Assembly (NCBI GenBank): GCA_041497315.1
Contig: JBGQGH010000002.1
Location: 4,270 to 68,269, forward strand
Direction: 5' to 3'
DNA: 64,000 nt
Source of the DNA: Terriglobia bacterium
GTDB lineage: Bacteria; Acidobacteriota; Terriglobia; Acidiferrales; UBA7541
A model generated the notes under the pieces. The model was not told the origin of the DNA and searched no databases. It worked only from the letters and a program-made list of their open reading frames with translations. Positions 48,774-59,148 of this stretch are shown here, one piece after another. The position numbers and the translations under genes were made by a program. Each line of letters opens with the position of its first letter. Position 1 is the first letter of the stretch.

Positions 48774-50705
<1,932 letters not shown>

Positions 50706-50737
50706 GATTCCCTCACCTTACGGGTCCCATCCCGCTC

Positions 50738-51316
50738 CTACTTTTTTCTCCGGCCGCCGGCGCGTTTGCGGCCGGAGGCGCGCCGGGCGGCGGGGAGCAC
50801 GCCAACGAACGGCAGATTTCGATAAAGACCGCGGCTCTCGGAGAGGCCGTAGCCCACCAAGTAATTAGATGCAGCAGCGAAGCCTGAGTAATGCGGCTCC
50901 AAGGCCACTCTTCGCGCTTCCGGGCGATCCAAGAGGACCGCGAGGCGCAGCGAGCGCGGGCGGCTCTCCTCGATACGCTTCACCAGAAAATCGTGAGTGA
51001 TGCCCGAGTGCAAGAGGGCATCCACGAGCAAAACGTCGCGCCCCTTCAGATTCGGCTGCCGCGAGAAAACGACCTCGCGGCGTTCATGCCCGCCCTGCTT
51101 GAAATCGCGAATCTCGGAACGCACAAAATGGCAGACCACCGGACGGTTGATGCGCCGCACCAGGTCCGCACCGAAAACGAAAGCGTTCTCGAGGATGATG
51201 ACCACATCCACGGTCCGCCCGGCATAGTCACGGGAAATGGCGCGACCCAAACTCGCGACGCGGGCAGCCACCCGGGACGCGGAATAGGCTGTCTTCACGC
51301 CGCCACCCACCGTCAC
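50738..51316 (-). CDS. hpt: hypoxanthine phosphoribosyltransferase
   Basis: PRPP motif VLLVDALLHSGIT and YLVGYGLS. The likely GTG start at 51316 overlaps the tilS stop (GTGA). The listed 265-aa ORF is over-extended. Confidence 0.85.
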   Translation of the reverse strand: MTVGGGVKTAYSASRVAARVASLGRAISRDYAGRTVDVVIILENAFVFGADLVRRINRPVVCHFVRSEIRDFKQGGHERREVVFSRQPNLKGRDVLLVDALLHSGITHDFLVKRIEESRPRSLRLAVLLDRPEARRVALEPHYSGFAAASNYLVGYGLSESRGLYRNLPFVGVLPAARRASGRKRAGGRRKK

Positions 51317-52788
51317 AGCTCTTCCTCTGCGACCACCAGGCCGGACTTCGTTCCCGGGCGCGCGGCGAATTCCTCCGCCACCGGCAATTCGCGGGCCCAG
51401 ACCAAAGACCCGGCGCTGGTCAAGACCGGCCACCCGGCCCTCTCGCGCACCGCCACCCGGTTCGCCAGCAGCAGGCGCTTCAGCTTGTGCGGGTGCCGGC
51501 GGCCGCGCGGCCGATAGGAATCCCCCGGGCGCCAATTGCGCAAGACCAGAGGCGGACGGAGCAAGTCCCGATCGAGGGCTTCGGCCAGACTTCTAGTGTC
51601 GCTCCGCGCCGCAGGCCAGTCAATGACTTTCAGGCAGAAGCGCCTGCCGATTTCCGGGACTGAAACAGAGGCGGGCTGAGCGCCGGACAGCTCCACCGAA
51701 TACTCATACGTCTTGGAGGCCAAATCGGATTCCGGCTCACCAGTAGTGCCGGAAGGCCGATTTGCGAGTGAGAAAACGATGCGGTCGAAGTCTCTCTGCG
51801 CAATGACGCCTCCGGGAAGCTCGACGCGGTTGCCGCTCCTGCATTCCGTGGCGAGATGCAGCACCTGATCAACGTGCTGCGCCGCGAGTTGCGCCGAGCC
51901 TCCGCGAACCTCGGCGACGATGCGCCGCACCAGGCGCTTGCTGAGGGCTTCGAGGGAGCCGCGGGAACCTGCGTCGGCAAGATCCGGCGGAAACGGCGAC
52001 AGGAGGTCGTCCACGCGGATAGCGACGCCCGCAGGAAGCTTCTCGGTGAGCGCGCGGCAGCGGTCGGCGATGAGAAGATTCCAGAATTCGGCGTCCTCAC
52101 GCGCAAGGGCGGCAAGCTGGCCGAGGCGAGCAACGATTTCGGGCTGGAAGTCGCGCTCCAACTCTGGCAGGAGGTGATGGCGGATCCTGGCGCGAAGGCG
52201 CGAAGTGTCCTGATTCGAAGAATCCTCGCGCCAGGGCTGGCCGAGGGAATTGAGGTACTCACGAAGCTCGGCGCGGCGCACAGAAAGTAGCGGACGAACG
52301 ACATGCCCGGCGATCGGATAGATGGCCGCGAGGCCCGTGGGGCCCGTGCCGCGGAGCAGATGCGCGAGTACGGTCTCGGCCTGATCGTCCGCGGTGTGCG
52401 CGACCGCGACGCGGGTGGCGCGGCCGGACTCCACGACGGATTCGAAGAATCTCAAGCGAAGCCGGCGAGCGGCGTCTTCCAGATTCCAGCCGTTTGCGCG
52501 CGCGGCCGCGGCGACATCTTCCCGCGCGGAAATCAAGGCGAGGCCGTGTTTCGCGGCGAGTTGTGCCACGAACTGTTCATCCGCATCCGCTTCCGCTCCG
52601 CGCAATTGATGATTGAAGTGCAAGACCACAAGCCGGACACCTAACTCCTCGCGGAGTTCTGCGAGCAAGAGCAGAAGCGCTACCGAATCCGCGCCGCCGG
52701 AAACGGCCACACCCACGGTGTCGCCGGGCGCCAGCATGTGATGCCGGGAGATGGCGGCCTTTACGCTCTCGTGAAGCTTGGATTTCAT
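51313..52788 (-). CDS. tilS: tRNA(Ile)-lysidine synthase
   Basis: PP-loop VGVAVSGGADSVALLLLL and HFNHQLRG...D. Lies in the tilS-hpt-ftsH synteny. Confidence 0.9.
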   Translation of the reverse strand: MKSKLHESVKAAISRHHMLAPGDTVGVAVSGGADSVALLLLLAELREELGVRLVVLHFNHQLRGAEADADEQFVAQLAAKHGLALISAREDVAAAARANGWNLEDAARRLRLRFFESVVESGRATRVAVAHTADDQAETVLAHLLRGTGPTGLAAIYPIAGHVVRPLLSVRRAELREYLNSLGQPWREDSSNQDTSRLRARIRHHLLPELERDFQPEIVARLGQLAALAREDAEFWNLLIADRCRALTEKLPAGVAIRVDDLLSPFPPDLADAGSRGSLEALSKRLVRRIVAEVRGGSAQLAAQHVDQVLHLATECRSGNRVELPGGVIAQRDFDRIVFSLANRPSGTTGEPESDLASKTYEYSVELSGAQPASVSVPEIGRRFCLKVIDWPAARSDTRSLAEALDRDLLRPPLVLRNWRPGDSYRPRGRRHPHKLKRLLLANRVAVRERAGWPVLTSAGSLVWARELPVAEEFAARPGTKSGLVVAEEEL

Positions 52789-52883
52789 TGCAGCCTGCGC
52801 AGCGATGCCTTTCCTCGAAGGGTATGTTAACAGCCCGGAAGCGGAAGGAACAATGCGAGCGGCTGGAAACGCGTGTCAGTCAA

Positions 52884-53294
52884 TCAGAAGTTGGTTGAGG
52901 ATTGCTCGGCCAGGAGGTCGCGGCTGTGGGCGATGCGGTGATCCAGCGCGACGGCTGCGAAATACGCGCAGGCCTGCCGCTCTGCTTCGGCCCAGTCGGC
53001 CACCGTTGGCGCCAGCCGCCGCCCCGTGTCCCGAAGTAGGTTCATCATGCGGAAATAGAGCCCCACGGCGCGCAGGCGATTGCCGTCCGCGCCCGCTTCG
53101 GGGCAAAGCTGGATCAACTGCACAAGCCTGCCGAATTCATCGCCCGCGACCGAACGGCCGTTGATGCCGGTGACTTCCCGCGCGTCCAAAGAGAGCTCCT
53201 CCCCCGCACAAGCCGCGATCAGGGACCGGCAGTAGGAGACGAAGAACTGCAGCAAGACAGCAAAGGAGACCGCGAGAATAAGAGCCGCGATCAT
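52884..53294 (-). CDS. hypothetical N-terminally anchored protein
   Basis: ATG 53294 overlaps the stop of the upstream 7-TM gene (ATGA). It has one TM (MIAALILAVSFAVLLQFFV) and a helical domain. I recognise no family. Confidence 0.5.
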   Translation of the reverse strand: MIAALILAVSFAVLLQFFVSYCRSLIAACAGEELSLDAREVTGINGRSVAGDEFGRLVQLIQLCPEAGADGNRLRAVGLYFRMMNLLRDTGRRLAPTVADWAEAERQACAYFAAVALDHRIAHSRDLLAEQSSTNF

Positions 53295-53986
53295 CGGTTC
53301 TGCGCGGTCAGGCGAGCAGGAGCCAGACGCGCGTCCTCCGAAACTCTCCAAAACGTGTAAGCCCAAGCCAGCGGCAAAAATGTGCCTGCCAGCGGAGGGA
53401 TGAATTTCGTGATGGGGAGGCCGGGATACATGTTGCGCAGGGCATACGCGCCGGCTGAAGCGCTGAAGTAAATCCCCAATGCCAGAACGAGTTGGACGAG
53501 CCGCGTGCGCGTCTCGCGCAACTTGATCACCGCGGCCCAGAGCAAGTACGTTAGAACCACGCCGACAAAATACAGATTCTGGGAAAGCTCCACAACGAAG
53601 TGATTGGTGAGCTGCGTCCGGTGCTCCCGGACCACCAGGTAGGAAAACACGACCGTCGCGCCGAGCAGCACAATCGAACCAGCGCGGATTTGCCGGCTGA
53701 CACCCATCTCCTTGAAGACGAGCTGGTAGAGGGCAAGCACTGAGATGTAGAGAAAGATGGTCCAGAGCGCGTCTGAGTAGTAGTAAAAATACTTGTACTC
53801 GATGGAGGAGAAGCCGAACCGTTGAAAGACAAAAAACCTGGCGATGTTGATGCCGAAAGCGCCCAACATGCTGAGAATTAAGGCGAAATACCAGTCGAGG
53901 GAGCGGCTGCGGAATGAATACACCACCACGGCCGCCTCGAGAAGAGCACTTCCGAACCAGAGGACGTAATCAATCGGACCTAGCAC
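53291..53986 (-). CDS. hypothetical polytopic (about 7 TM) membrane protein
   Basis: Seven hydrophobic segments, rich in aromatic residues (YKYFYYYSDALW). GC looks lower than the core genes by eye (not counted). I recognise no family. Confidence 0.6.
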   Translation of the reverse strand: MLGPIDYVLWFGSALLEAAVVVYSFRSRSLDWYFALILSMLGAFGINIARFFVFQRFGFSSIEYKYFYYYSDALWTIFLYISVLALYQLVFKEMGVSRQIRAGSIVLLGATVVFSYLVVREHRTQLTNHFVVELSQNLYFVGVVLTYLLWAAVIKLRETRTRLVQLVLALGIYFSASAGAYALRNMYPGLPITKFIPPLAGTFLPLAWAYTFWRVSEDARLAPARLTAQNR

Positions 53987-54048
53987 GCGAGCCCATTCTG
54001 CCCGCCCGCGGCTTATCCCAAGTAAGTTGTCAGGTCAACTTCGACCTG

Positions 54049-54414
54049 TTACTTGACGCGCCACGGGTCAGGCGGAACTGGTGCCCCGCCGACTTTCCAC
54101 GGATCCGGGGGTACCGGCGCTCCGCCAACTTTCCATGGATCGGGCGGAACTGGTGCTCCACCCACTTTCCACGGATCTGGCGGAACCGGGGCCCCACCGA
54201 CTTTCCATGGGTCCGGCGGAACCGGCGCCCCGCCAACCTTCCATGGATCGGGCGGTACAGGTGCTCCACCCACTCTCCATGGATCTGGCGGAACTGGTGC
54301 TCCACCTACGGCCACTTCGATCGTCCCAGCCTTGCTGACTGTCAGGGCGCGAATCCCAACTGCGCCTGCCAGCACAAACAAGGCAAGTGCGACCACCACA
54401 GTTACCTTCTGCAT
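54049..54414 (-). CDS. exported/anchored protein consisting of a signal/anchor plus 7 x GGAPVPPDPW(K/R)V repeats
   Basis: SD GGAGGG 7 nt upstream of the ATG. N-terminal hydrophobic segment VTVVVALALFVLAGAVGI. The rest is seven perfect 12-aa units. Confidence 0.65.
   Translation of the reverse strand: MQKVTVVVALALFVLAGAVGIRALTVSKAGTIEVAVGGAPVPPDPWRVGGAPVPPDPWKVGGAPVPPDPWKVGGAPVPPDPWKVGGAPVPPDPWKVGGAPVPPDPWKVGGAPVPPDPWRVK
54055..54306 (-). repeat. tandem 36-bp x 7 coding repeat
   Basis: Unit boundaries are 54055, 54091, 54127, 54163, 54199, 54235 and 54271. The units differ at third-codon positions only, apart from K/R. Confidence 0.9.
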
Positions 54415-54783
54415 TCAGGTCCCTCCGAGCGAGACAGCATTGCTCGGGCGGGACTATATGGTGGTCAAGGCCTATTTCATAGGACCATTAGGACGATTTT
54501 GTGTCCAAAGGGTAAACACCTCCGGCTTTTGACCCGCCGGGAGGGGTATTCCCCACCCGGGCGGGCCAGCCAGTTCCTAGTTTCCCGCCAAGATGGTAGG
54601 GGATGCGGTAGGAGGATAGCTACAGTACGCTGGTACCAGCGGAATGGGACTTTCGTACTACAAGGGCGCTCCTGACAGCGGATTACCACACTGACGGGTA
54701 TCGCATCAGGGCGGGGATCCCAAGGGGGGGAACCCCTCCGTCCGGGTGGGGAAGACTGAGTGAACTGTATCCCCCCGTTCGGC

Positions 54784-54813
54784 TTGACTTGTCCCTGAGG
54801 GGGTCCTTAACAT
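54784..54813 (+). promoter_or_regulatory. candidate sigma70-type promoter for the tRNA
   Basis: TTGACT (54784-54789), an 18-nt spacer, then TAACAT (54808-54813), which ends 17 nt before the tRNA 5' end. Confidence 0.3.
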
Positions 54814-54830
54814 GAGAACCCTACTGCTGT

Positions 54831-54905
54831 GCCGGTGTAGCTCAGGGGTAGAGCGAGGGTCTCATAATCCCTAGGTCGTGGGTTCGAGTCCCACCGCCGG
54901 CACCA
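54831..54905 (+). tRNA. tRNA with anticodon CAT (elongator Met, or Ile2 if lysidine-modified)
   Basis: Hand-folded cloverleaf. Acceptor GCCGGTG/CGCCGGC, D arm GCTC-AGGGGTA-GAGC, anticodon loop CTCATAA, T arm GTGGG-TTCGAGT-CCCAC, discriminator A and encoded CCA. The G1-C72 pair argues against an initiator. Confidence 0.9.
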
Positions 54906-55090
54906 GATTCCCCCCATTATCCCCGTGGAATCTCTCGACCGTCCAACTGGAAAGGAATTTCGAGGAAACCTAGAAGGTCATGGTTCTTTGCGTGCGGAGT
55001 TGCAGTCGACTCAGAACGGGCAAAGCCGGCGAAGCTGTCATCTGGCCGCCGATTCCCCGCCGGCTCAAACCACCCGGCTGTTCAACACAC

Positions 55091-55309
55091 CTAAGGCATT
55101 TGGAACGCGAGAAAGCGCAGTTTGGAGTCGTGCTCGACCTGCAGGACGACGGCACTGCCCGGTTTCATGGCATCGAGGGCGGCTCGCAGGCTTTGGTGGC
55201 TTGATATCGAAACGCCGTTGACCGCGTGGATGACGTCGCCGGTGACGAGAGAATTGTCCGCGGCGCTGGGCTCGAGGGCGCGAGCAACGACGATGACTCC
55301 GGAGGGCAT
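55091..55309 (-). CDS. second PDZ domain fragment of the HtrA/DegQ protease (separated from the main ORF by an in-frame TAG)
   Basis: GVIVVARALEPSAADNSLVTGDVIHAVNGVSISS...VVLQVE is a canonical PDZ. It lies in the same frame as 55388-56515, and the open frame runs from 55387. Confidence 0.6.
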   Translation of the reverse strand: MPSGVIVVARALEPSAADNSLVTGDVIHAVNGVSISSHQSLRAALDAMKPGSAVVLQVEHDSKLRFLAFQMP

Positions 55310-55387
55310 GCGAAGATCGGAGAGAACTCTGGCGATCCTTTCGTCAATTTCGATGCCGAGGATGCCCAGTTTGCGGACGAGGTTTTT

Positions 55388-56515
55388 CTACGGATTGGCG
55401 AAATTGAGCAAACTATCCATCTCGTGACGGTGCTCGATGACGGGGACGTCGAGCGTCAATTTCCTGGAGCCGCGCAAGACTTCCATCTTTACGTGGTCGC
55501 CCGCCTGGCGCATGAATAACGTGTAGTAGAGAAGCGGGACGCTCTCCACCGGCTTTCCGTCCAGTGAGAGCAGGACATCCTGAATCTTCAGGCCGGCGGA
55601 TTCGGCGGGGCCCTCGGGCAAGACGTCGGTGACCACCACTCCGGAATCGCGCGAAAGGCCGAGGCCAGTGGCAATCGTGGGCGTGATGGTCTGGACGGCA
55701 GCGCCGATTTCGGGGCGATGGAGATGACCGAACTTGCGGAGTTGTGGGTAAGCCACCGAGACCACGCCGCTGGGAATCGCGAAGCCGAGGCCTTCGTTGC
55801 CGCCGGACTGCGAGAGAATCATGGTGTTGATGCCGACGAGTTCGCCGTTGACGTTGACCAGCGGCCCGCCGCTGTTGCCGGGATTGATGGAGGCATCGGT
55901 CTGGATGAAGACGAGAAAGCTATCGGGATCCAGTTGGCGCGCGACGGCGCTGACCACGCCCATGGTGACGGAGTTGCGCAGGCCCTCCGGGCTGCCGAAG
56001 GCGAAGACCACCTCTCCCTGGCGAAGATCGATGTATTTAGCGAAGGGAAGAGCAGGCAAGCCTTTAGCCTCGATCTTGATTACCGAGAGATCCAATTCGG
56101 TGTCTGTGCCGATGACGCGGCCTTCGACGACGCGTCCCTGGGCCGTGGCGAGCACGCTAACGGCAGTGTGATCCGTCATCGCCCCGGGGATGACGACTTC
56201 CAGGCGCTGCGCGTTATTCACGACGTGCGCGTTGGTGATGATGTAGCCGTCCGGGTCCACGATGACGCCGGAGCCGATAGCGCGCTGGCGTCCGATAACC
56301 ACGCCGGCTTCGCCGCGGCCACGTCCTTCAAGCGGCGCGTAGGCGGTGACGAGGATTTGCACGACGCTCGGAGAAACTTTCTGGACGAGGGCTTGCATCG
56401 AGCGGTTCAGTTCGCGCAAGGGATCATTGGCGGTGCGCTGCGCGGGGGCCTGGGCGAGGAGAGGAGAGAGTGCGCCACAGAGACACAGAGGCAAAGAGCA
56501 ACCTGGCTGAGGCAA
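55388..56515 (-). CDS. HtrA/DegP/DegQ-family serine protease (protease domain + PDZ1)
   Basis: Catalytic triad contexts ITNAHVV, D in TELDLSVIKI, and INPGNSGGPLVN, with PDZ1 following. TTG start. It terminates at TAG 55388-55390. Confidence 0.85.
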   Translation of the reverse strand: MPQPGCSLPLCLCGALSPLLAQAPAQRTANDPLRELNRSMQALVQKVSPSVVQILVTAYAPLEGRGRGEAGVVIGRQRAIGSGVIVDPDGYIITNAHVVNNAQRLEVVIPGAMTDHTAVSVLATAQGRVVEGRVIGTDTELDLSVIKIEAKGLPALPFAKYIDLRQGEVVFAFGSPEGLRNSVTMGVVSAVARQLDPDSFLVFIQTDASINPGNSGGPLVNVNGELVGINTMILSQSGGNEGLGFAIPSGVVSVAYPQLRKFGHLHRPEIGAAVQTITPTIATGLGLSRDSGVVVTDVLPEGPAESAGLKIQDVLLSLDGKPVESVPLLYYTLFMRQAGDHVKMEVLRGSRKLTLDVPVIEHRHEMDSLLNFANP

Positions 56516-56715
56516 ACAATGAAATTCGTTTGAAACTGTGAAGCGTCAGCACGATGGATCTCCTCTCGAGGCCCGGCTTATCGAGTCGCACGAAAGGCTA
56601 CCACAGAGGGGAGCGGGCGCACACCGGAGCGGCATGATGAGAGTGGAAGGAAAAAACCACACAGGCGGAAAGCCCTCCTGCGGCGGGCAGGCCTGTGCCA
56701 CTGAGAGAGCCCGGC

Positions 56716-59148
56716 CTATTCGTAGCGGAGAGCGATCATGGGATCCACGCGAGCGGCGCGGCGCGCGGGGATGTACGTGGCGAGCATGGCGACCAGAGCG
56801 AGAGCGCCAGCCATGACGAAAAAGACGACAGGATCGAACGCGCCGACTTCGAAGAGTTGACTCGAAAGCAGGCGCGCGAGAATCCACGCGCCGAGCAAGC
56901 CGAGGGCGGCGCCAAGACCCGCGAGACGCATTCCCTGCCCCAACACCATGCCCAAAACCTGCGAGGTCTGTGCGCCGAGCGCCACGCGGATGCCGATTTC
57001 CTGCGTGCGCACGGAAACGGAATAGCTGATGACTCCGTAAAGGCCGAGCGCGGCCATCAGCAACGCGACTCCGGCGAAAAATCCGAGGAGCGTGACGGCG
57101 AAGCGGCGCGGAGCGAGCGAGCAAGCGAGGAGTTCGTCCATGGTTTTCAGATCGTGGACGGGCTGCGCGGGATCAATGGAGCGGAGAGCTTCGCGGATGG
57201 GCCCGGCGAGGCTCGCGAGATTGCCGGAGGTTTTCAGAACGAGGAAGGTATTGGGGACGGGCTGCTGAAAGGTCGGATAGTAGCAAACGCCCTTTCCGGA
57301 ATCGCCCGTAAGCGCGGAGTGCATGACGTGGCCGACGACGCCGACGATGGTGGCCCACTTCGCGTTCGGGCCGCGGCGCACGCGCTGGCCGAGGGGATCC
57401 TGGTTGGGCCAATACTGCTTGGCAAGATTTTCATCGATGACGATGACGGGCTGTCCGCCGCGGCGATCCTGATCATTGAAGAAGCGCCCCTTCAGTAAGG
57501 GGATTTTCATGGCCGTGAAGTAGCCGGGCGAAATCCAGCGCAAATCGCTGTGCGGGCCGGGATCGCCGGGGCCCTCGGGACGGCCGTCAATCGAAAACGA
57601 AGCAGACGCGCCGGAGCCGGTGAATGGCAGAGGCGCGGCCTCGGCGGCGGCGGAAACGCCGGGAATAGCGGACATGCGTTCGACAAGCGCCTGGTAGAAC
57701 GCAAGGCGCTTTTCCGGTTCTTTGTATTGCGATTCGGGCAGCGCCAGCGCAGCCGTCATCACGCCGCGAGGGTCGAAACCGGGGCCGACGCGCTGAAGGT
57801 GGGCGAGACTCCGAAGAAAGAGACCGGCGCCGACGAGAAGGACCAGGGCGAGCGCGACTTCGCTGATAACGAGCGCGGAACGCGTGCGCTGGCGGCCGCG
57901 GCCGGCGGTGCCGGAGCGGCTGCCTTCCTTGAGCAGTTCGAACTGCTGGCTGCGGGAAACCTGCCAGGCGGGAATGAGGCCGAAGAAAACTCCGGCGACA
58001 ATGCCGATGAGAGCGGTAAAGAGCAGGACGTAACCGTCCGGATGAATCACAAGGCCCTGCGCGATGCTTTCCGGCGCGAGCCAGAGAAGCGCGCGAATCC
58101 CGGCGGCCGCAAACAACAGACCGAGGAGTGTGCCGGCGCCGGCGAGGAGAAAACTTTCGGCCAGCGTCTGGCGAATCAGATGCCAGCGCGACGCGCCGAG
58201 AGCAGAGCGCACAGCGAGTTCGCGGGCGCGGGCGGAGCCTTTGGCGAGCATTAGGCCGGCGATATTGGAGCAGGCGATGAGGAGAACGAAAGCGACCGCA
58301 CCAAGAAGAATGTAGAGCGGCGTCTTGAGGTCGCCGTAGGCGAATTCGGTGAGCGGCAGGATAAACATGCCCCAGGCGGATTCGCGGGAGTATGTGCCGA
58401 CACGGGGGTCGCTTTCTGCGGCGCGGCGGTTCAGCACCGGGAGGAAGGCTTGGGCCTGCCCGAGGGTCACATCCGGGCGGATGCGAGCGACCGCGAAATA
58501 ACTTTCGTTGAAACGGTTATCGGCTGCGTAGTCGGCCGCGGGCAGACCGAGGGGAACCCAAAGCTGAGCTTGTGGTGGCCAGTTGAATTCCGGGCCCATC
58601 ACGCCGATGACTTTGTAAACGAGCTGATTGAGCTGAATCGTTTTTCCAAGAATGGCGGGGTCGGCACCGAACAGGCGTTTCCAGGTTGGGTCGGAGAGGA
58701 TCGCGATGCGATTCGCGCCGGGCTGATCCTCTTCGGGCTGGAAGGCGCGGCCGAGGCGCGGCTTCGCGCCGAAAACTTCGAACCACTGCCAGGTGACGGG
58801 GGCGCCGAGAAGTCTTTCGGGCAGATCGCTGCCGGTGTAATTGAAGTCCGCTTCGTCGGCCATCGCCGCGGCCGAGAAAATCTGCTTGCTCTCGCGGACG
58901 TTCACGAAATCCGGCGCGGAGACGACGATGCTCTTCAGATTCAGCTTGTCGTATTTGACGCGCAGGGCGACGACGCGAATGGGGTCCGGGAGGCCGGGAG
59001 GATGAAGCACGAGCGCGTTCATCACGCTGAAGATGGCGGTGTTTGCGCCGATGCCGAGGGCGAGCGTGAGCACGGCCACGGCGGTGAAACTCGGACTCCG
59101 GGCCAGCAGGCGCAAGCCGTAGCGAAAATCCTGGCGAAGCATGCTCAT
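56716..59148 (-). CDS. duplicated FtsX/MacB-type permease of the acidobacterial duplicated orphan permease (ADOP) type
   Basis: MSMLRQDFRYGLRLLARSPSFTAVAVLTLALGIGANTAIFSV, two MacB_PCD + FtsX halves, and a C-terminal RAARVDPMIALRYE. Confidence 0.85.
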   Translation of the reverse strand: MSMLRQDFRYGLRLLARSPSFTAVAVLTLALGIGANTAIFSVMNALVLHPPGLPDPIRVVALRVKYDKLNLKSIVVSAPDFVNVRESKQIFSAAAMADEADFNYTGSDLPERLLGAPVTWQWFEVFGAKPRLGRAFQPEEDQPGANRIAILSDPTWKRLFGADPAILGKTIQLNQLVYKVIGVMGPEFNWPPQAQLWVPLGLPAADYAADNRFNESYFAVARIRPDVTLGQAQAFLPVLNRRAAESDPRVGTYSRESAWGMFILPLTEFAYGDLKTPLYILLGAVAFVLLIACSNIAGLMLAKGSARARELAVRSALGASRWHLIRQTLAESFLLAGAGTLLGLLFAAAGIRALLWLAPESIAQGLVIHPDGYVLLFTALIGIVAGVFFGLIPAWQVSRSQQFELLKEGSRSGTAGRGRQRTRSALVISEVALALVLLVGAGLFLRSLAHLQRVGPGFDPRGVMTAALALPESQYKEPEKRLAFYQALVERMSAIPGVSAAAEAAPLPFTGSGASASFSIDGRPEGPGDPGPHSDLRWISPGYFTAMKIPLLKGRFFNDQDRRGGQPVIVIDENLAKQYWPNQDPLGQRVRRGPNAKWATIVGVVGHVMHSALTGDSGKGVCYYPTFQQPVPNTFLVLKTSGNLASLAGPIREALRSIDPAQPVHDLKTMDELLACSLAPRRFAVTLLGFFAGVALLMAALGLYGVISYSVSVRTQEIGIRVALGAQTSQVLGMVLGQGMRLAGLGAALGLLGAWILARLLSSQLFEVGAFDPVVFFVMAGALALVAMLATYIPARRAARVDPMIALRYE

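What the first reader, a model, noticed from the sequence alone, without database searches (positions are those of the whole stretch)
54055..54306. Seven perfect 12-aa repeats (GGAPVPPDPWKV) whose 36-bp DNA units differ only at synonymous sites
ORF 54049-54414 (minus strand) encodes an N-terminal signal/anchor followed only by 7 tandem copies of GGAPVPPDPW(K/R)V. The DNA units are clearly non-identical. Val is GTC/GTT/GTG/GTA, Asp is GAC/GAT, Pro is CCG/CCC/CCA/CCT, Gly is GGC/GGT/GGA/GGG, and Lys is AAA/AAG. Yet the peptide is invariant apart from K/R in the first and last units. Recent slippage would give identical DNA, so this pattern points to strong purifying selection on the peptide unit itself. 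It may also reflect selection against recombination between units. Each unit ends in W-K/R-V, so cleavage after the basic residue would release identical dodecapeptides. That is the logic of multi-core precursor peptides, such as some RiPP precursors and repeat pro-peptides. A rigid polyproline spacer is an alternative, but there is no C-terminal functional domain. I know of no family with this repeat.
Basis: seen in the sequence. Interest (0 to 1): 0.66.

Follow-up and report, generated by a model that had tools for sequence, protein, structure and literature searches.

The report
Repeated exported peptide beside 7TM protein
A small exported protein of soil Acidobacteria is little more than one to seven identical copies of an 11-residue proline-rich peptide; it always sits in front of an uncharacterised seven-helix membrane protein, and all copies change together as the peptide evolves, which points to an unknown peptide and membrane-partner system.

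Summary
ORF 54049-54414 (-) encodes a signal peptide, a short spacer and seven 12-residue units. The units differ at all 11 degenerate third positions but only at K/R in protein.

It is not an isolated oddity. It is the first gene of a three-gene cassette found in every complete locus examined in Terriglobia (Acidobacteriota). The cassette is a repeat protein (1-7 units), a 231-aa 7TM protein and a 136-aa one-helix protein. None has a Pfam, NCBIfam or PDB relative.

Across 79-82 arrays (the count differs by analysis), units within a protein are essentially identical in peptide: 6 replacements against 941 synonymous codon differences. There are 49 different peptides among 70 species. Synonymous signatures show the arrays predate species splits, so replacements were fixed in every unit in parallel rather than spread by gene conversion.

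Peptide positions co-vary preferentially with the periplasmic half of the 7TM protein.

My best reading, at moderate confidence, is a Sec-exported, copy-amplified peptide module that acts on the adjacent 7TM/1TM membrane complex.

Linkers are variable and often not basic, and no maturation enzymes are conserved nearby.

The parts
54453..54458 (-). Promoter -10 box (TATAGT). A sigma-70-like TTGAC..TATAG(A/T) promoter is conserved at this position upstream of the small ORF in most related loci.
   Evidence: upstream regions of 84 loci printed; CTTGACGGCA...TATAGACTC recurs.
54421..54448 (-). 5'-UTR hairpin (arms CCCGAGC 54448-54442 and GCTCGG 54430-54425) whose 3' arm overlaps the Shine-Dalgarno GGAGGG (54426-54421), 6 nt before the ATG.
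   Evidence: In 69 distinct UTRs of the family the mean MFE is -16.1 kcal/mol, the mean z is -3.2 against shuffles, and the first two SD bases are paired in 93%. Different arm sequences keep the pairing. No Rfam match.
54355..54414 (-). Predicted Sec signal peptide MQKVTVVVALALFVLAGAVG: n-region with K, an h-region of about 13 residues, and an A-V-G box at -3..-1.
   Evidence: Sequence inspection plus a family alignment. Column 21 is Ala in 69/70 and column 23 is G/S/A in 68/70, followed by [LVI][KR]. SignalP was not available, so cleavage is inferred.
54310..54354 (-). [quoted passage not shown] Its last residue is Ala, as in 82/82 family members.
54055..54309 (-). Array of seven units. K121 and the stop follow at 54049-54054.
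54049..54414 (-). Whole small ORF (121 aa), first gene of the cassette.
54031..54048 (-). Hairpin CAGGTC-gaagtt-GACCTG starting directly after the stop codon, with no U-tract. A hairpin at this place is present in most related loci within the 26-76 nt gap before the 7TM gene.
   Evidence: A role as partial attenuator or mRNA stabiliser is inference.
53291..53986 (-). 231-aa seven-helix membrane protein (GTG start), predicted N-terminus out and C-terminus in. It has a Tyr cluster SIEYKYFYYYSD at the periplasmic start of helix 3 and an invariant KLRETRTR-type cytoplasmic loop. This is the proposed partner of the repeat peptide.
   Evidence: AF2 model: pLDDT 81.7, 7 helices. Foldseek vs PDB gave only generic rhodopsin/GPCR bundles, TM about 0.5, E >= 0.037. 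No PDB sequence match. Family size. No Pfam hits. Positive-inside rule: 11.8 vs 3.8 K/R, 56/56 sequences. Co-variation.
52884..53294 (-). 136-aa protein with an N-terminal transmembrane helix and a helical bundle placed in the cytoplasm only by my reading of the sequence (basic residues YCRS directly after the helix; not computed). Invariant C64-P65, W101, E105, C109. Its ATG overlaps the 7TM stop (ATGA), which implies translational coupling.
   Evidence: AF2 model: pLDDT 86.9. Foldseek vs PDB: nothing, E > 2. Also.

Best explanation
The gene encodes a Sec-exported protein whose mature part is essentially nothing but tandem copies of one 11-residue module: three or four small residues followed by P-x-P-x-x-P-W/Y/D, here VGGAPVPPDPW. 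Each module works on its own and equivalently, so the array is a way of multiplying dose or valency. Its target is the membrane complex encoded immediately downstream and always co-inherited with it: a 7TM protein with a Tyr-rich periplasmic mouth, plus a translationally coupled one-helix protein with a helical domain that I place in the cytoplasm. Peptide and 7TM protein form a matched, co-evolving pair. When specificity drifts in a lineage, selection drives the same replacement into every unit separately.

What is shown:
- the cassette and its conservation;
- the identity of units within a protein despite old, synonymously diverged DNA;
- array-wide parallel replacements;
- preferential co-variation with the periplasmic half of the 7TM protein.

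What is inferred:
- export and signal-peptide cleavage;
- physical binding of peptide to the 7TM protein;
- whether units are released as 11-12-mers or act as an intact multivalent chain;
- what the complex does downstream (signalling versus transport or assembly).
For: 1. Cassette. In six metagenomic or MAG contexts and 80 GTDB genomes the small ORF lies 26-76 nt upstream of the 231-aa gene, which overlaps the 136-aa gene, while the flanks differ. Every locus with enough upstream DNA has the small ORF. 477 stretches in the one-genome-per-species collection encode a relative of the 7TM protein (genomes not counted separately).

2. Independent modules. Copy number is 1-7. A ~93%-identical strain has 4 units, equal to window units 1, 2, 6 and 7. 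Cores are identical while linkers are not.

3. Selection. Between 18 independent sister-species pairs there are 31 replacements against 111 synonymous codon differences. Within arrays there are 6 against 941 (odds ratio 44, Fisher p = 2e-23). There are 49 distinct peptides in 70 species.

4. Parallel replacement, not conversion.
- Unit-specific synonymous signatures are shared across species that carry different peptides. For example, ACA TCT TCA CCT GTT CCT marks unit 2 in L030, L035 and L072, and in part in L027 and L077.
- Changed codons keep their own third base: GCT to ATT, GCA to ATA, GCG to GTG.
- In 9 independent sister pairs with different peptides, 38 of 50 units have a closer synonymous neighbour in the other species than in their own array (sign test p = 1.5e-4).

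5. Partner.
- 7TM residue 59 sits in the periplasmic H2-H3 loop between invariant G58 and S61. It tracks unit position 8: F with P, L with A, V with V, P with I in one close group.
- Across 70 loci residue 59 is F/Y in 35 of 50 when position 8 is Pro and never aromatic (0 of 21) when it is not.
- In an unbiased scan, the maximum APC-corrected mutual information (APC = average-product correction) is higher for periplasmic-half columns than for cytoplasmic-half columns (p = 1.3e-4, entropy-adjusted 7e-4). None of 500 entropy-matched pseudo-ligand sets drawn from the third protein reaches this.
- Topology is supported by the positive-inside rule in 56 of 56 sequences.

6. Expression signals. A conserved promoter, a strong SD and an SD-sequestering hairpin precede the ORF.
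Against: - No experiment of any kind: no expression, export, cleavage or binding data.
- The co-variation signal depends on the statistic. Entropy-corrected summed MI shows no periplasmic enrichment (p about 0.3). The effective number of sequences is only about 44, and the topology comes from helix limits plus the positive-inside rule, not from a solved structure.
- The association between residue 59 and position 8 rests on about four independent lineages.
- The 7TM protein resembles receptors only in generic bundle shape (Foldseek E >= 0.037). No output domain such as a kinase or DNA-binding domain is present in the cassette, so 'receptor' is not demonstrated. An enzyme, chaperone or transporter for the peptide would give the same co-variation.
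- Signal-peptide cleavage was judged by eye.
- Some arrays contain recently duplicated, DNA-identical blocks, so birth and death of units contributes to uniformity as well.
Confidence: 0.4

Rival explanations
1. The protein is an envelope structural or adaptor element. It stays intact, free in the periplasm or anchored by an uncleaved N-terminal helix, as a chain of polyproline-II-type modules. These bind something abundant and repetitive such as peptidoglycan, outer-membrane components or exopolysaccharide. The 7TM and one-helix proteins would serve in its insertion, anchoring or turnover.
For: - The N-terminal 26 residues are as conserved as the neighbouring proteins, which is unusual for a mere signal peptide.
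- There is no conserved processing site between units.
- About 61 of 82 proteins end in K or R, my own tally of the tail list printed, which is reminiscent of C-terminal anchoring residues.
- The cassette is chromosomal and was found in many species of the class, which suits a housekeeping role.
Against: - A generic structural ligand would not be expected to force lineage-specific, array-wide replacements at several positions: 49 peptides in 70 species with units kept identical.
- One-unit versions exist, so no fixed length or ruler function applies.
- Co-variation points to the periplasmic face of the 7TM protein.
Confidence: 0.2
2. The protein is a multi-core precursor of a modified peptide natural product (RiPP-like). 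The units are excised and chemically modified, with the 7TM and 136-aa proteins acting as novel membrane-bound maturation or export factors.
For: - Identical short units, each under individual selection.
- A hairpin after the small ORF, as often seen after precursor genes (the comparison is from general knowledge).
- Conserved Trp/Tyr, Pro and small residues could be modification sites.
- Enzyme-substrate co-evolution would also produce the co-variation.
Against: - No recognisable modifying enzyme, protease or ABC/C39 exporter lies in the conserved cassette.
- The 7TM protein has no invariant His, Asp pair or Cys that would suggest catalysis.
- There are no conserved recognition sequences, and linkers vary.
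- Cores are identical, not hypervariable, within a precursor, the opposite of cyanobactin or PRMP-type precursors.
- The N-terminus is Sec-type rather than a leader peptide.
Confidence: 0.12
3. The ORF is a regulatory leader: a translation-arrest or EF-P/proline-sensing peptide with an N-terminal membrane-targeting segment, in the manner of SecM, MifM or VemP. Ribosome stalling on PPxP motifs would control expression of the downstream membrane proteins.
For: - N-terminal hydrophobic segment, proline-rich C-terminal part, and a position directly upstream of membrane-protein genes.
- PPD and PPxP are known strong EF-P-dependent stalling contexts (general knowledge).
- Rare codons are enriched: GC3 is 0.50 against 0.74-0.80 in neighbouring genes.
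Against: - Consecutive prolines are not conserved. Whole clades have PVPILPD, PVPATPW, PVPITPW or PMPQTPW.
- All 11 core positions, including the non-proline ones, are held identical among units.
- The downstream genes are not Sec, YidC or SecDF components.
- Co-variation is with periplasmic residues of the 7TM protein, which a leader that acts only as a nascent chain would not produce.
Confidence: 0.05
4. The region is a low-complexity proline-rich linker with no specific function, or an assembly or annotation artefact.
For: Short repetitive ORF with no database family.
Against: - The ORF is present with conserved promoter, SD, signal peptide and synteny in every one of more than 80 examined loci that has enough upstream DNA, including Mb-scale contigs and one record titled as a chromosome.
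- There are 6 replacements against 941 synonymous differences within arrays.
- Only the sense frame is conserved.
Confidence: 0.01

Closest known systems
Secreted peptide polyproteins with a 7TM receptor, e.g. yeast alpha-factor precursor MFalpha1 and Ste2 (also neuropeptide and apidaecin-type polyproteins)
   Same: - Signal peptide followed by tandem copies of one short mature peptide.
- Copy number varies between close relatives.
- Repeats encode the same peptide with different synonymous codons (PMC5850478).
- The peptide acts on a seven-helix membrane protein (Ste2 as the receptor is my own knowledge, not taken from the paper).
- The peptide sequence differs between species.
   Different: - Bacterial, and exported to the periplasm by Sec.
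- No dibasic (Kex2-type) sites or spacer peptides. Linkers are 0-6 variable residues.
- The partner gene is adjacent in an operon.
- The 7TM protein has no detectable homology to GPCRs (Foldseek TM about 0.5, E >= 0.037), and no G-protein-like output is known.
- Release of free peptides is not shown.
Multi-core RiPP precursors (cyanobactins, fungal KEX2-processed repeat peptides, sponge proline-rich macrocyclic peptide precursors)
   Same: Short, proline-rich core peptides repeated in one precursor. In sponge and fungal cases a signal peptide comes first (PMC10945851).
   Different: - In those precursors the recognition sequences are conserved and the cores are hypervariable within a precursor. 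Here the cores are identical and the linkers variable.
- No maturation enzymes are conserved nearby.
Polyubiquitin genes
   Same: Head-to-tail units with identical protein sequence but synonymously diverged DNA, and variable copy number (general knowledge; PMC10457151 appeared in the list but I did not read it).
   Different: - Ubiquitin is a folded 76-residue domain that hardly changes between species.
- Here the 11-residue unit changes often between species, and all units change together without DNA homogenisation.
TonB-ExbB-ExbD / TolA-TolQ-TolR gene trios
   Same: The gene order is superficially alike: an N-terminally anchored proline-rich periplasmic protein, then a multi-helix membrane protein, then a one-helix protein.
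   Different: - No TonB or TolA C-terminal domain follows the repeats.
- The 231-aa protein is a compact 7TM bundle with no MotA/ExbB Pfam hit.
- The 136-aa protein has no ExbD hit and no acidic residue in its helix. Its C-terminal domain appears to be cytoplasmic, judged by eye from the basic residues after the helix.
Sec/YidC-monitoring arrest peptides (SecM, MifM, VemP, ApdA-type)
   Same: Small ORF with an N-terminal export or anchor segment, located directly upstream of membrane-protein genes.
   Different: - The downstream genes are not secretion-machinery components.
- There is no single C-terminal arrest motif, and polyproline is not conserved.
- Selection acts on every residue of every unit.

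Membership tests
Multi-core RiPP precursor (cyanobactin / PRMP / dikaritin logic) | Conserved recognition or cleavage sequences flanking each core | tested here: not met
   Linkers are A, K, T, S, R, LAA, M, LLA, GKLFA or none. In 45 of 64 arrays the linkers are not identical, and K/R is present in every linker in only 25 of 79 arrays.
Multi-core RiPP precursor (cyanobactin / PRMP / dikaritin logic) | Maturation enzymes (protease, cyclase, rSAM, YcaO, P450 and similar) or a dedicated exporter encoded with the precursor | tested here: not met
   The only conserved neighbours are the 231-aa and 136-aa proteins, which have no Pfam, NCBIfam or PDB match. Flanking genes differ between loci.
Multi-core RiPP precursor (cyanobactin / PRMP / dikaritin logic) | Post-translationally modified, excised product | not testable with these tools
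   Needs LC-MS of cultures or heterologous expression.
Secreted peptide polyprotein (alpha-factor / neuropeptide type) | N-terminal signal peptide | tested here: inconclusive
   n-, h- and c-regions and an A-x-[GSA] box are conserved in about 69 of 70 sequences. No SignalP run and no experimental cleavage data.
Secreted peptide polyprotein (alpha-factor / neuropeptide type) | Tandem copies of an identical mature peptide, copy number polymorphic, synonymous differences among copies | tested here: met
   Compare with MFalpha1 in PMC5850478.
Secreted peptide polyprotein (alpha-factor / neuropeptide type) | Dibasic or other fixed processing sites that release the peptides | tested here: not met
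   No dibasic sites; single K/R in only a subset.
Secreted peptide polyprotein (alpha-factor / neuropeptide type) | Cognate receptor that recognises the peptide | tested here: inconclusive
   The adjacent 7TM protein co-varies with the peptide on its periplasmic half, but the result depends on the statistic. Binding was not tested.
GPCR / microbial rhodopsin superfamilies (for the 231-aa protein) | Significant sequence or structural similarity; retinal Lys or GPCR motifs | tested here: not met
   Foldseek best E = 0.037, TM about 0.5. No PDB sequence hit. No Pfam hit. The invariant and nearly invariant residues include only one Lys (K155, nearly invariant), which lies at the cytoplasmic end of helix 5 rather than in helix 7.
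TonB/ExbB/ExbD-type trio | TonB C-terminal domain; MotA/ExbB channel protein; ExbD/TolR with a conserved acidic transmembrane residue and a periplasmic domain | tested here: not met
   No domain follows the repeats. No MotA_ExbB or ExbD Pfam hits. The AF2 models are a 7TM bundle and a one-helix protein with a helical bundle placed in the cytoplasm by eye.
Translation-arrest leader peptides (SecM/MifM/VemP/Apd) | Conserved C-terminal arrest motif, with a Sec, YidC or SecDF gene downstream | tested here: not met
   Downstream genes are unrelated to secretion machinery. Proline doublets are not conserved across the family.

The most novel reading that the evidence does not exclude
Terriglobia carry a widespread, previously undescribed peptide and receptor module. 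The ligand is a Sec-exported polyprotein of identical 11-residue proline-rich peptides. It is recognised by its own operon-encoded seven-helix membrane receptor together with a one-helix transducer. Ligand and receptor co-evolve into lineage-specific 'pherotypes'. Selection, not gene conversion, keeps all ligand copies identical by fixing the same replacement in each unit in parallel. This would be a prokaryotic counterpart of alpha-factor/Ste2-type signalling built from unrelated proteins.
Probability: 0.25. Interest if true: 0.88.

Novelty: categorically new. Interest (0 to 1): 0.72.

Why it matters
Acidobacteria are among the most abundant soil bacteria, yet very little is known about how they sense or signal. 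Here a three-gene module found in many species of the class (477 matching stretches in a one-genome-per-species collection) has no annotated part.

Its evolutionary signature is unusually informative. Units that have been separate long enough to diverge at about half of their synonymous sites remain identical in protein, while the protein sequence itself changes between species in all units at once. That is direct sequence evidence that each 11-residue unit is a functional entity with lineage-specific specificity. It also gives a testable partner: the adjacent 7TM protein, with candidate contact pairs such as unit position 8 and residue 59.

If the ligand and receptor reading holds, it would be a new class of bacterial peptide sensing built on a seven-helix receptor. 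If it does not hold, the cassette still defines three new protein families, a conserved SD-sequestering 5' hairpin, and a clean natural example of parallel, selection-driven 'concerted' evolution without DNA homogenisation.

Tried and rejected
- Pfam and NCBIfam scans of all three proteins and of several homologues found nothing real. DUF5708 and FH1 fell below cut-off. A census of weak Pfam hits over 56 and 52 family members showed no recurrent family.
- PDB sequence profiles found nothing.
- Foldseek of both AF2 models against PDB gave only generic 7TM bundles for the 231-aa protein (E >= 0.037) and nothing for the 136-aa protein.
- Rfam on 52500-56000 found only a tRNA.
Per-sequence folding was used instead.
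- Literature searches for the peptide strings and for Acidobacteria repeat peptides returned nothing relevant.
- The idea that codons are actively diversified to avoid recombination was rejected. Same-codon frequency among units is 0.405 against 0.418 expected from genomic usage (p = 0.42).
- Polyproline or EF-P stalling as the conserved feature was rejected, because whole clades lack consecutive prolines.
- A link to the neighbouring HtrA-like protease, MacB-type permease, TilS or FtsH was rejected, because the flanks are not conserved and a tRNA gene on the other strand separates the cassette from the protease.
- Summed-MI co-variation with entropy correction gave no significant periplasmic enrichment. 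I report this as a weakness.
- A second cassette in the window: none found.
Full report
**1. The observation**

The minus-strand ORF 54049-54414 encodes 121 residues: MQKVTVVVALALFVLAGAVG, then IRALTVSKAGTIEVAV, then seven copies of GGAPVPPDPW(K/R)V, then K. The 36-nt units occupy exactly 54055-54306.

Thirteen of 36 alignment columns vary. Eleven are all the degenerate third positions, and the other two are the first two bases of the Lys/Arg codon. Of 152 pairwise differences, 136 are at third positions, and K/R in units 1 and 7 is the only protein difference.

Tandem Repeats Finder scores a 108-nt period (86% matches) above the 36-nt period (80%). The array therefore contains an old three-unit duplication: unit 1 resembles 4, 2 resembles 5 and 3 resembles 6.

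The + strand ORFs across the array share third codon positions with the minus frame, so in this window they look conserved too. In 79 related arrays, however, adjacent units differ at 6 of 2057 codons in the sense frame against 280 of 2244 in the best antisense frame, which also has stops in 8 arrays. The minus-strand gene is the real one.

**2. What surrounds it**

A search of the protein collection found 40 small proteins of 66-177 aa, all but two of them 66-93 aa, with the same build. Each has an M-x-K/R-x hydrophobic N-terminus, then 1-4 copies of x-GGAPVPP-x-P-W/Y-type units. One of them, P0001, shares the window protein's N-terminus exactly.

Their contigs show a fixed trio. The small ORF comes first. 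After a 26-76 nt gap comes a 231-232-aa membrane protein. A ~134-136-aa protein follows, with its start overlapping the preceding stop. In the window these are 53291-53986 and 52884-53294, with an ATGA overlap. Flanking genes differ between loci: TilS/FtsH here and in L003/L004, and RDD or ABC genes elsewhere.

Scanning one genome per GTDB species with the 231-aa protein gave 477 confirmed relatives. Nearly all of the best 80 record titles name Acidobacteriota taxa (Terriglobia, 'Candidatus Acidiferrales', Acidoferrum, Sulfotelmatobacter, Acidipila); two are labelled Candidatus Binatus and Candidatus Dormiibacterota. Every locus with enough upstream DNA has a signal-peptide-plus-repeat ORF in front.

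The unit consensus is three or four small residues followed by P-φ-P-x-x-P-(W/Y/D). Examples are NGGAPVPPTPW, NTGSPMPPTPW, STTAPVPPTPW and STGNPVPILPD. Copy number among the 82 arrays is:

| Units | Arrays |
|---|---|
| 1 | 3 |
| 2 | 15 |
| 3 | 34 |
| 4 | 22 |
| 5 | 5 |
| 7 | 3 |

The three proteins have no Pfam, NCBIfam or PDB-sequence relatives.
- The 231-aa protein models with AlphaFold2 as a compact seven-helix bundle (pLDDT 81.7). The positive-inside rule puts its N-terminus outside and its C-terminus inside, with 11.8 against 3.8 K/R residues in 56 of 56 sequences.
- Foldseek against PDB returns only generic rhodopsin/GPCR bundles (TM about 0.5, E >= 0.037).
- The 136-aa protein is one transmembrane helix plus a helical bundle (pLDDT 86.9), which I place in the cytoplasm only because basic residues directly follow the helix. 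It has no structural match.
- The 7TM family is small and stand-alone: 443 clusters at 50% identity among 1.84 billion representatives, with the full-length members about 215-250 aa and the many shorter ones apparently fragments.

**3. The evolutionary signature**

In 81 arrays with at least two units, the 11-residue cores of one protein differ on average at 0.056 residues but at 5.1 of 33 nucleotides, nearly all synonymous. Yet the peptide is not conserved between species: 70 species carry 49 different cores.

A McDonald-Kreitman-style table makes the contrast explicit:

| Comparison | Replacements | Synonymous codon differences |
|---|---|---|
| Matched units, 18 mutually nearest species pairs | 31 | 111 |
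| Adjacent units within arrays | 6 | 941 |

The odds ratio is 44 and Fisher p = 2e-23. Concerted changes are counted once per unit, so the p-value is optimistic, but the effect is very large.

Homogenisation by gene conversion or unit turnover cannot be the whole explanation, because unit-specific synonymous signatures are shared across species that carry different peptides.
- In the group L030/L035/L072 (…PVPATPW), L039 (…PVPVTPW), L077 (…PVPITPW) and L027 (…PVPPTPW), 'unit 2' keeps ACA TCT TCA CCT GTT CCT across species.
- The replaced codon keeps each unit's own third base: GCT/GCT/GCA against ATT/ATT/ATA, and GCG against GTG. A second group behaves the same way.
- In nine independent sister pairs with different peptides, 38 of 50 units have a closer synonymous neighbour in the other species than in their own array (sign test p = 1.5e-4, Wilcoxon p = 3e-5).

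So the arrays are older than the species, and the same amino-acid replacement was fixed separately in every unit.

Birth and death of units also occurs.
- L024 and L010 contain DNA-identical two-unit blocks.
- The window's closest relative (L087, about 93% identical flanks) has four units corresponding to window units 1, 2, 6 and 7.
- A few arrays are mixed (L033, L040, L044, L069, L076) and look like intermediates.

Linkers are not held uniform: 45 of 64 arrays have non-identical linkers. This delimits the selected entity to the 11-residue core. In the window the only variable residue, K/R, is the linker.

**4. What this implies**

Each core is an independently functional, equivalent module. 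One copy suffices in some species. All copies see the same selective optimum, and that optimum shifts between lineages. This is the behaviour expected of a ligand or substrate matched to a co-evolving partner. It is not expected of a folded repeat domain, a ruler or a low-complexity linker.

**5. The partner**

In the close group above, residue 59 of the 7TM protein lies in the periplasmic H2-H3 loop between invariant G58 and S61. It follows unit position 8 exactly: F with P, L with A, V with V, P with I.

Over 70 loci, residue 59 is aromatic in 35 of 50 cases when position 8 is Pro, and never (0 of 21, at least four lineages) when it is not.

An unbiased scan of all unit positions against all columns of both downstream proteins puts mostly periplasmic-half residues at the top: 13, 65, 50, 187, 197, 131 and 59.
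- The maximum APC-corrected mutual information (APC = average-product correction) is higher for periplasmic-half than for cytoplasmic-half columns (p = 1.3e-4, entropy-adjusted 7e-4).
- None of 500 entropy-matched pseudo-ligand sets drawn from the third protein reaches this.
- A cruder statistic, entropy-corrected summed MI, shows no enrichment (p about 0.3).

I therefore treat the co-variation as supportive, not conclusive. The Tyr cluster (SIEYKYFYYYSD) at the periplasmic start of helix 3 fits recognition of proline-rich peptides by aromatic residues. That point rests on general knowledge of SH3, WW and EVH1 domains and is an inference.

**6. Export and expression signals**

The N-terminus has n-, h- and c-regions and an A-x-[G/S/A] box. 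Ala is present in 69 of 70 sequences, about 20 residues from the start. The residue before the first unit is Ala in 82 of 82. No SignalP run was possible, so cleavage is inferred. The N-terminal segment is as conserved as the neighbouring proteins, so a retained anchor cannot be excluded.

Upstream lie a conserved sigma-70-like promoter and a strong SD. In 93% of 69 distinct UTRs the SD is sequestered in a stable 5' hairpin (mean -16.1 kcal/mol, z -3.2). Different sequences keep the pairing. In the window this hairpin is at 54448-54421.

A hairpin without a U-tract follows the stop codon in most loci. In the window it is at 54048-54031.

The array uses rare A/T-ending codons. Its GC3 is 0.50 against 0.74-0.80 in neighbouring genes.

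**7. Comparison with known systems**

The logic is closest to eukaryotic secreted peptide polyproteins such as yeast MFalpha1. These have a signal peptide, tandem identical peptides with synonymous differences, and copy-number polymorphism (PMC5850478). The alpha-factor receptor Ste2 being a seven-helix protein is my own knowledge.
- There are no dibasic processing sites here, the proteins are unrelated, and release of peptides is unproven.
- The cassette does not meet the defining features of multi-core RiPP precursors. Recognition sequences and co-encoded maturation enzymes are absent, and cores are identical rather than hypervariable.
- TonB/ExbB/ExbD-like and arrest-peptide readings fail their membership tests.

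**8. Verdict**

The specific RiPP reading and the K/R-cleavage reading are not supported.

My best explanation, at confidence about 0.4, is an exported, copy-amplified proline-rich peptide module that acts on the adjacent 7TM/one-helix membrane complex and co-evolves with it. Whether it signals, is processed or is structural remains open.

Noticed in passing
window 54421-54448 (-), and the equivalent position in L001-L087: A conserved 5'-UTR hairpin starts just after the -10 box and base-pairs with the Shine-Dalgarno sequence of the small ORF (anti-SD CCUCC-type arm). The SD is paired in 93% of 69 distinct UTRs, with mean z -3.2 and compensatory arm changes. There is no Rfam family, so this may be an undescribed translational control element.
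   Followed up: partly
window 54031-54048 (-), and most related loci: A hairpin without a U-tract lies directly after the stop codon of the small ORF, in the 26-76 nt gap before the 7TM gene. It may act as a partial attenuator or mRNA stabiliser that sets the ratio of peptide to downstream proteins.
   Followed up: partly
window 54055-54306 (-): The array is rich in codons that are rare for this genome (GGT/GGA/GGG, GCA, CCA, GTT/GTA). Its GC3 is 0.50 against 0.74-0.80 in five neighbouring genes. Repeat GC3 is also lowish in many homologues (0.42-0.86, mean 0.63). The cause is unknown (translation speed, mRNA structure or mutation bias).
   Followed up: partly
window 54831-54905 (+): A tRNA-Met gene (anticodon CAT) on the opposite strand lies between the cassette and the HtrA-like protease gene. 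It marks the upstream end of the cassette's transcription unit.
   Followed up: yes
window 53914-54675 (+) and 54053-54532 (+): Long antisense ORFs run across the array. One encodes an equally 'perfect' repeat, HGSGGTGAPPTF, because its third codon positions coincide with those of the real gene. Family data show it is a by-product. This is a trap for anyone judging strand from synonymous patterns in a single sequence.
   Followed up: yes
L087 661-918 compared with window 54055-54306: A relative with about 93% identical DNA carries four units corresponding to window units 1, 2, 6 and 7. This is a 108-bp (three-unit) insertion or deletion, matching the 108-nt super-period seen by TRF.
   Followed up: yes
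L076, L040, L033, L069, L044 (small ORFs just upstream of the 7TM match): A few arrays are mixed, for example HTGSPAPPTPW x2 with NTGSPVPPTPW x2 in L076, or one PVPATPW unit among PVPPTPW units in L040. They may be intermediates of array-wide replacement.
   Followed up: no
L030, L035, L072, L077 small ORFs (C-terminal tails): One clade has an extra conserved, degenerate tail after the last unit ((K/M)T(S/A/T)SPIQ(S/A)PLK). It looks like a decayed or specialised terminal unit.
   Followed up: no
intergenic regions before the 7TM gene in many loci (e.g. L005, L019, L025, L044): A short conserved motif, CCAGG(G/C)C, recurs about 20-25 nt upstream of the 7TM start codon. It is not obvious in the window. 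Its function is unknown.
   Followed up: no
window 48774-52788 (-) and 55388-59148 (-): Neighbouring genes are ordinary: tilS (PP-loop and TilS_C), an HPRT-like ORF and ftsH downstream; an HtrA/DegP-type protease (Trypsin_2 and PDZ) and an 810-aa MacB/FtsX-type permease upstream. None of these is conserved next to the cassette in other genomes.
   Followed up: partly
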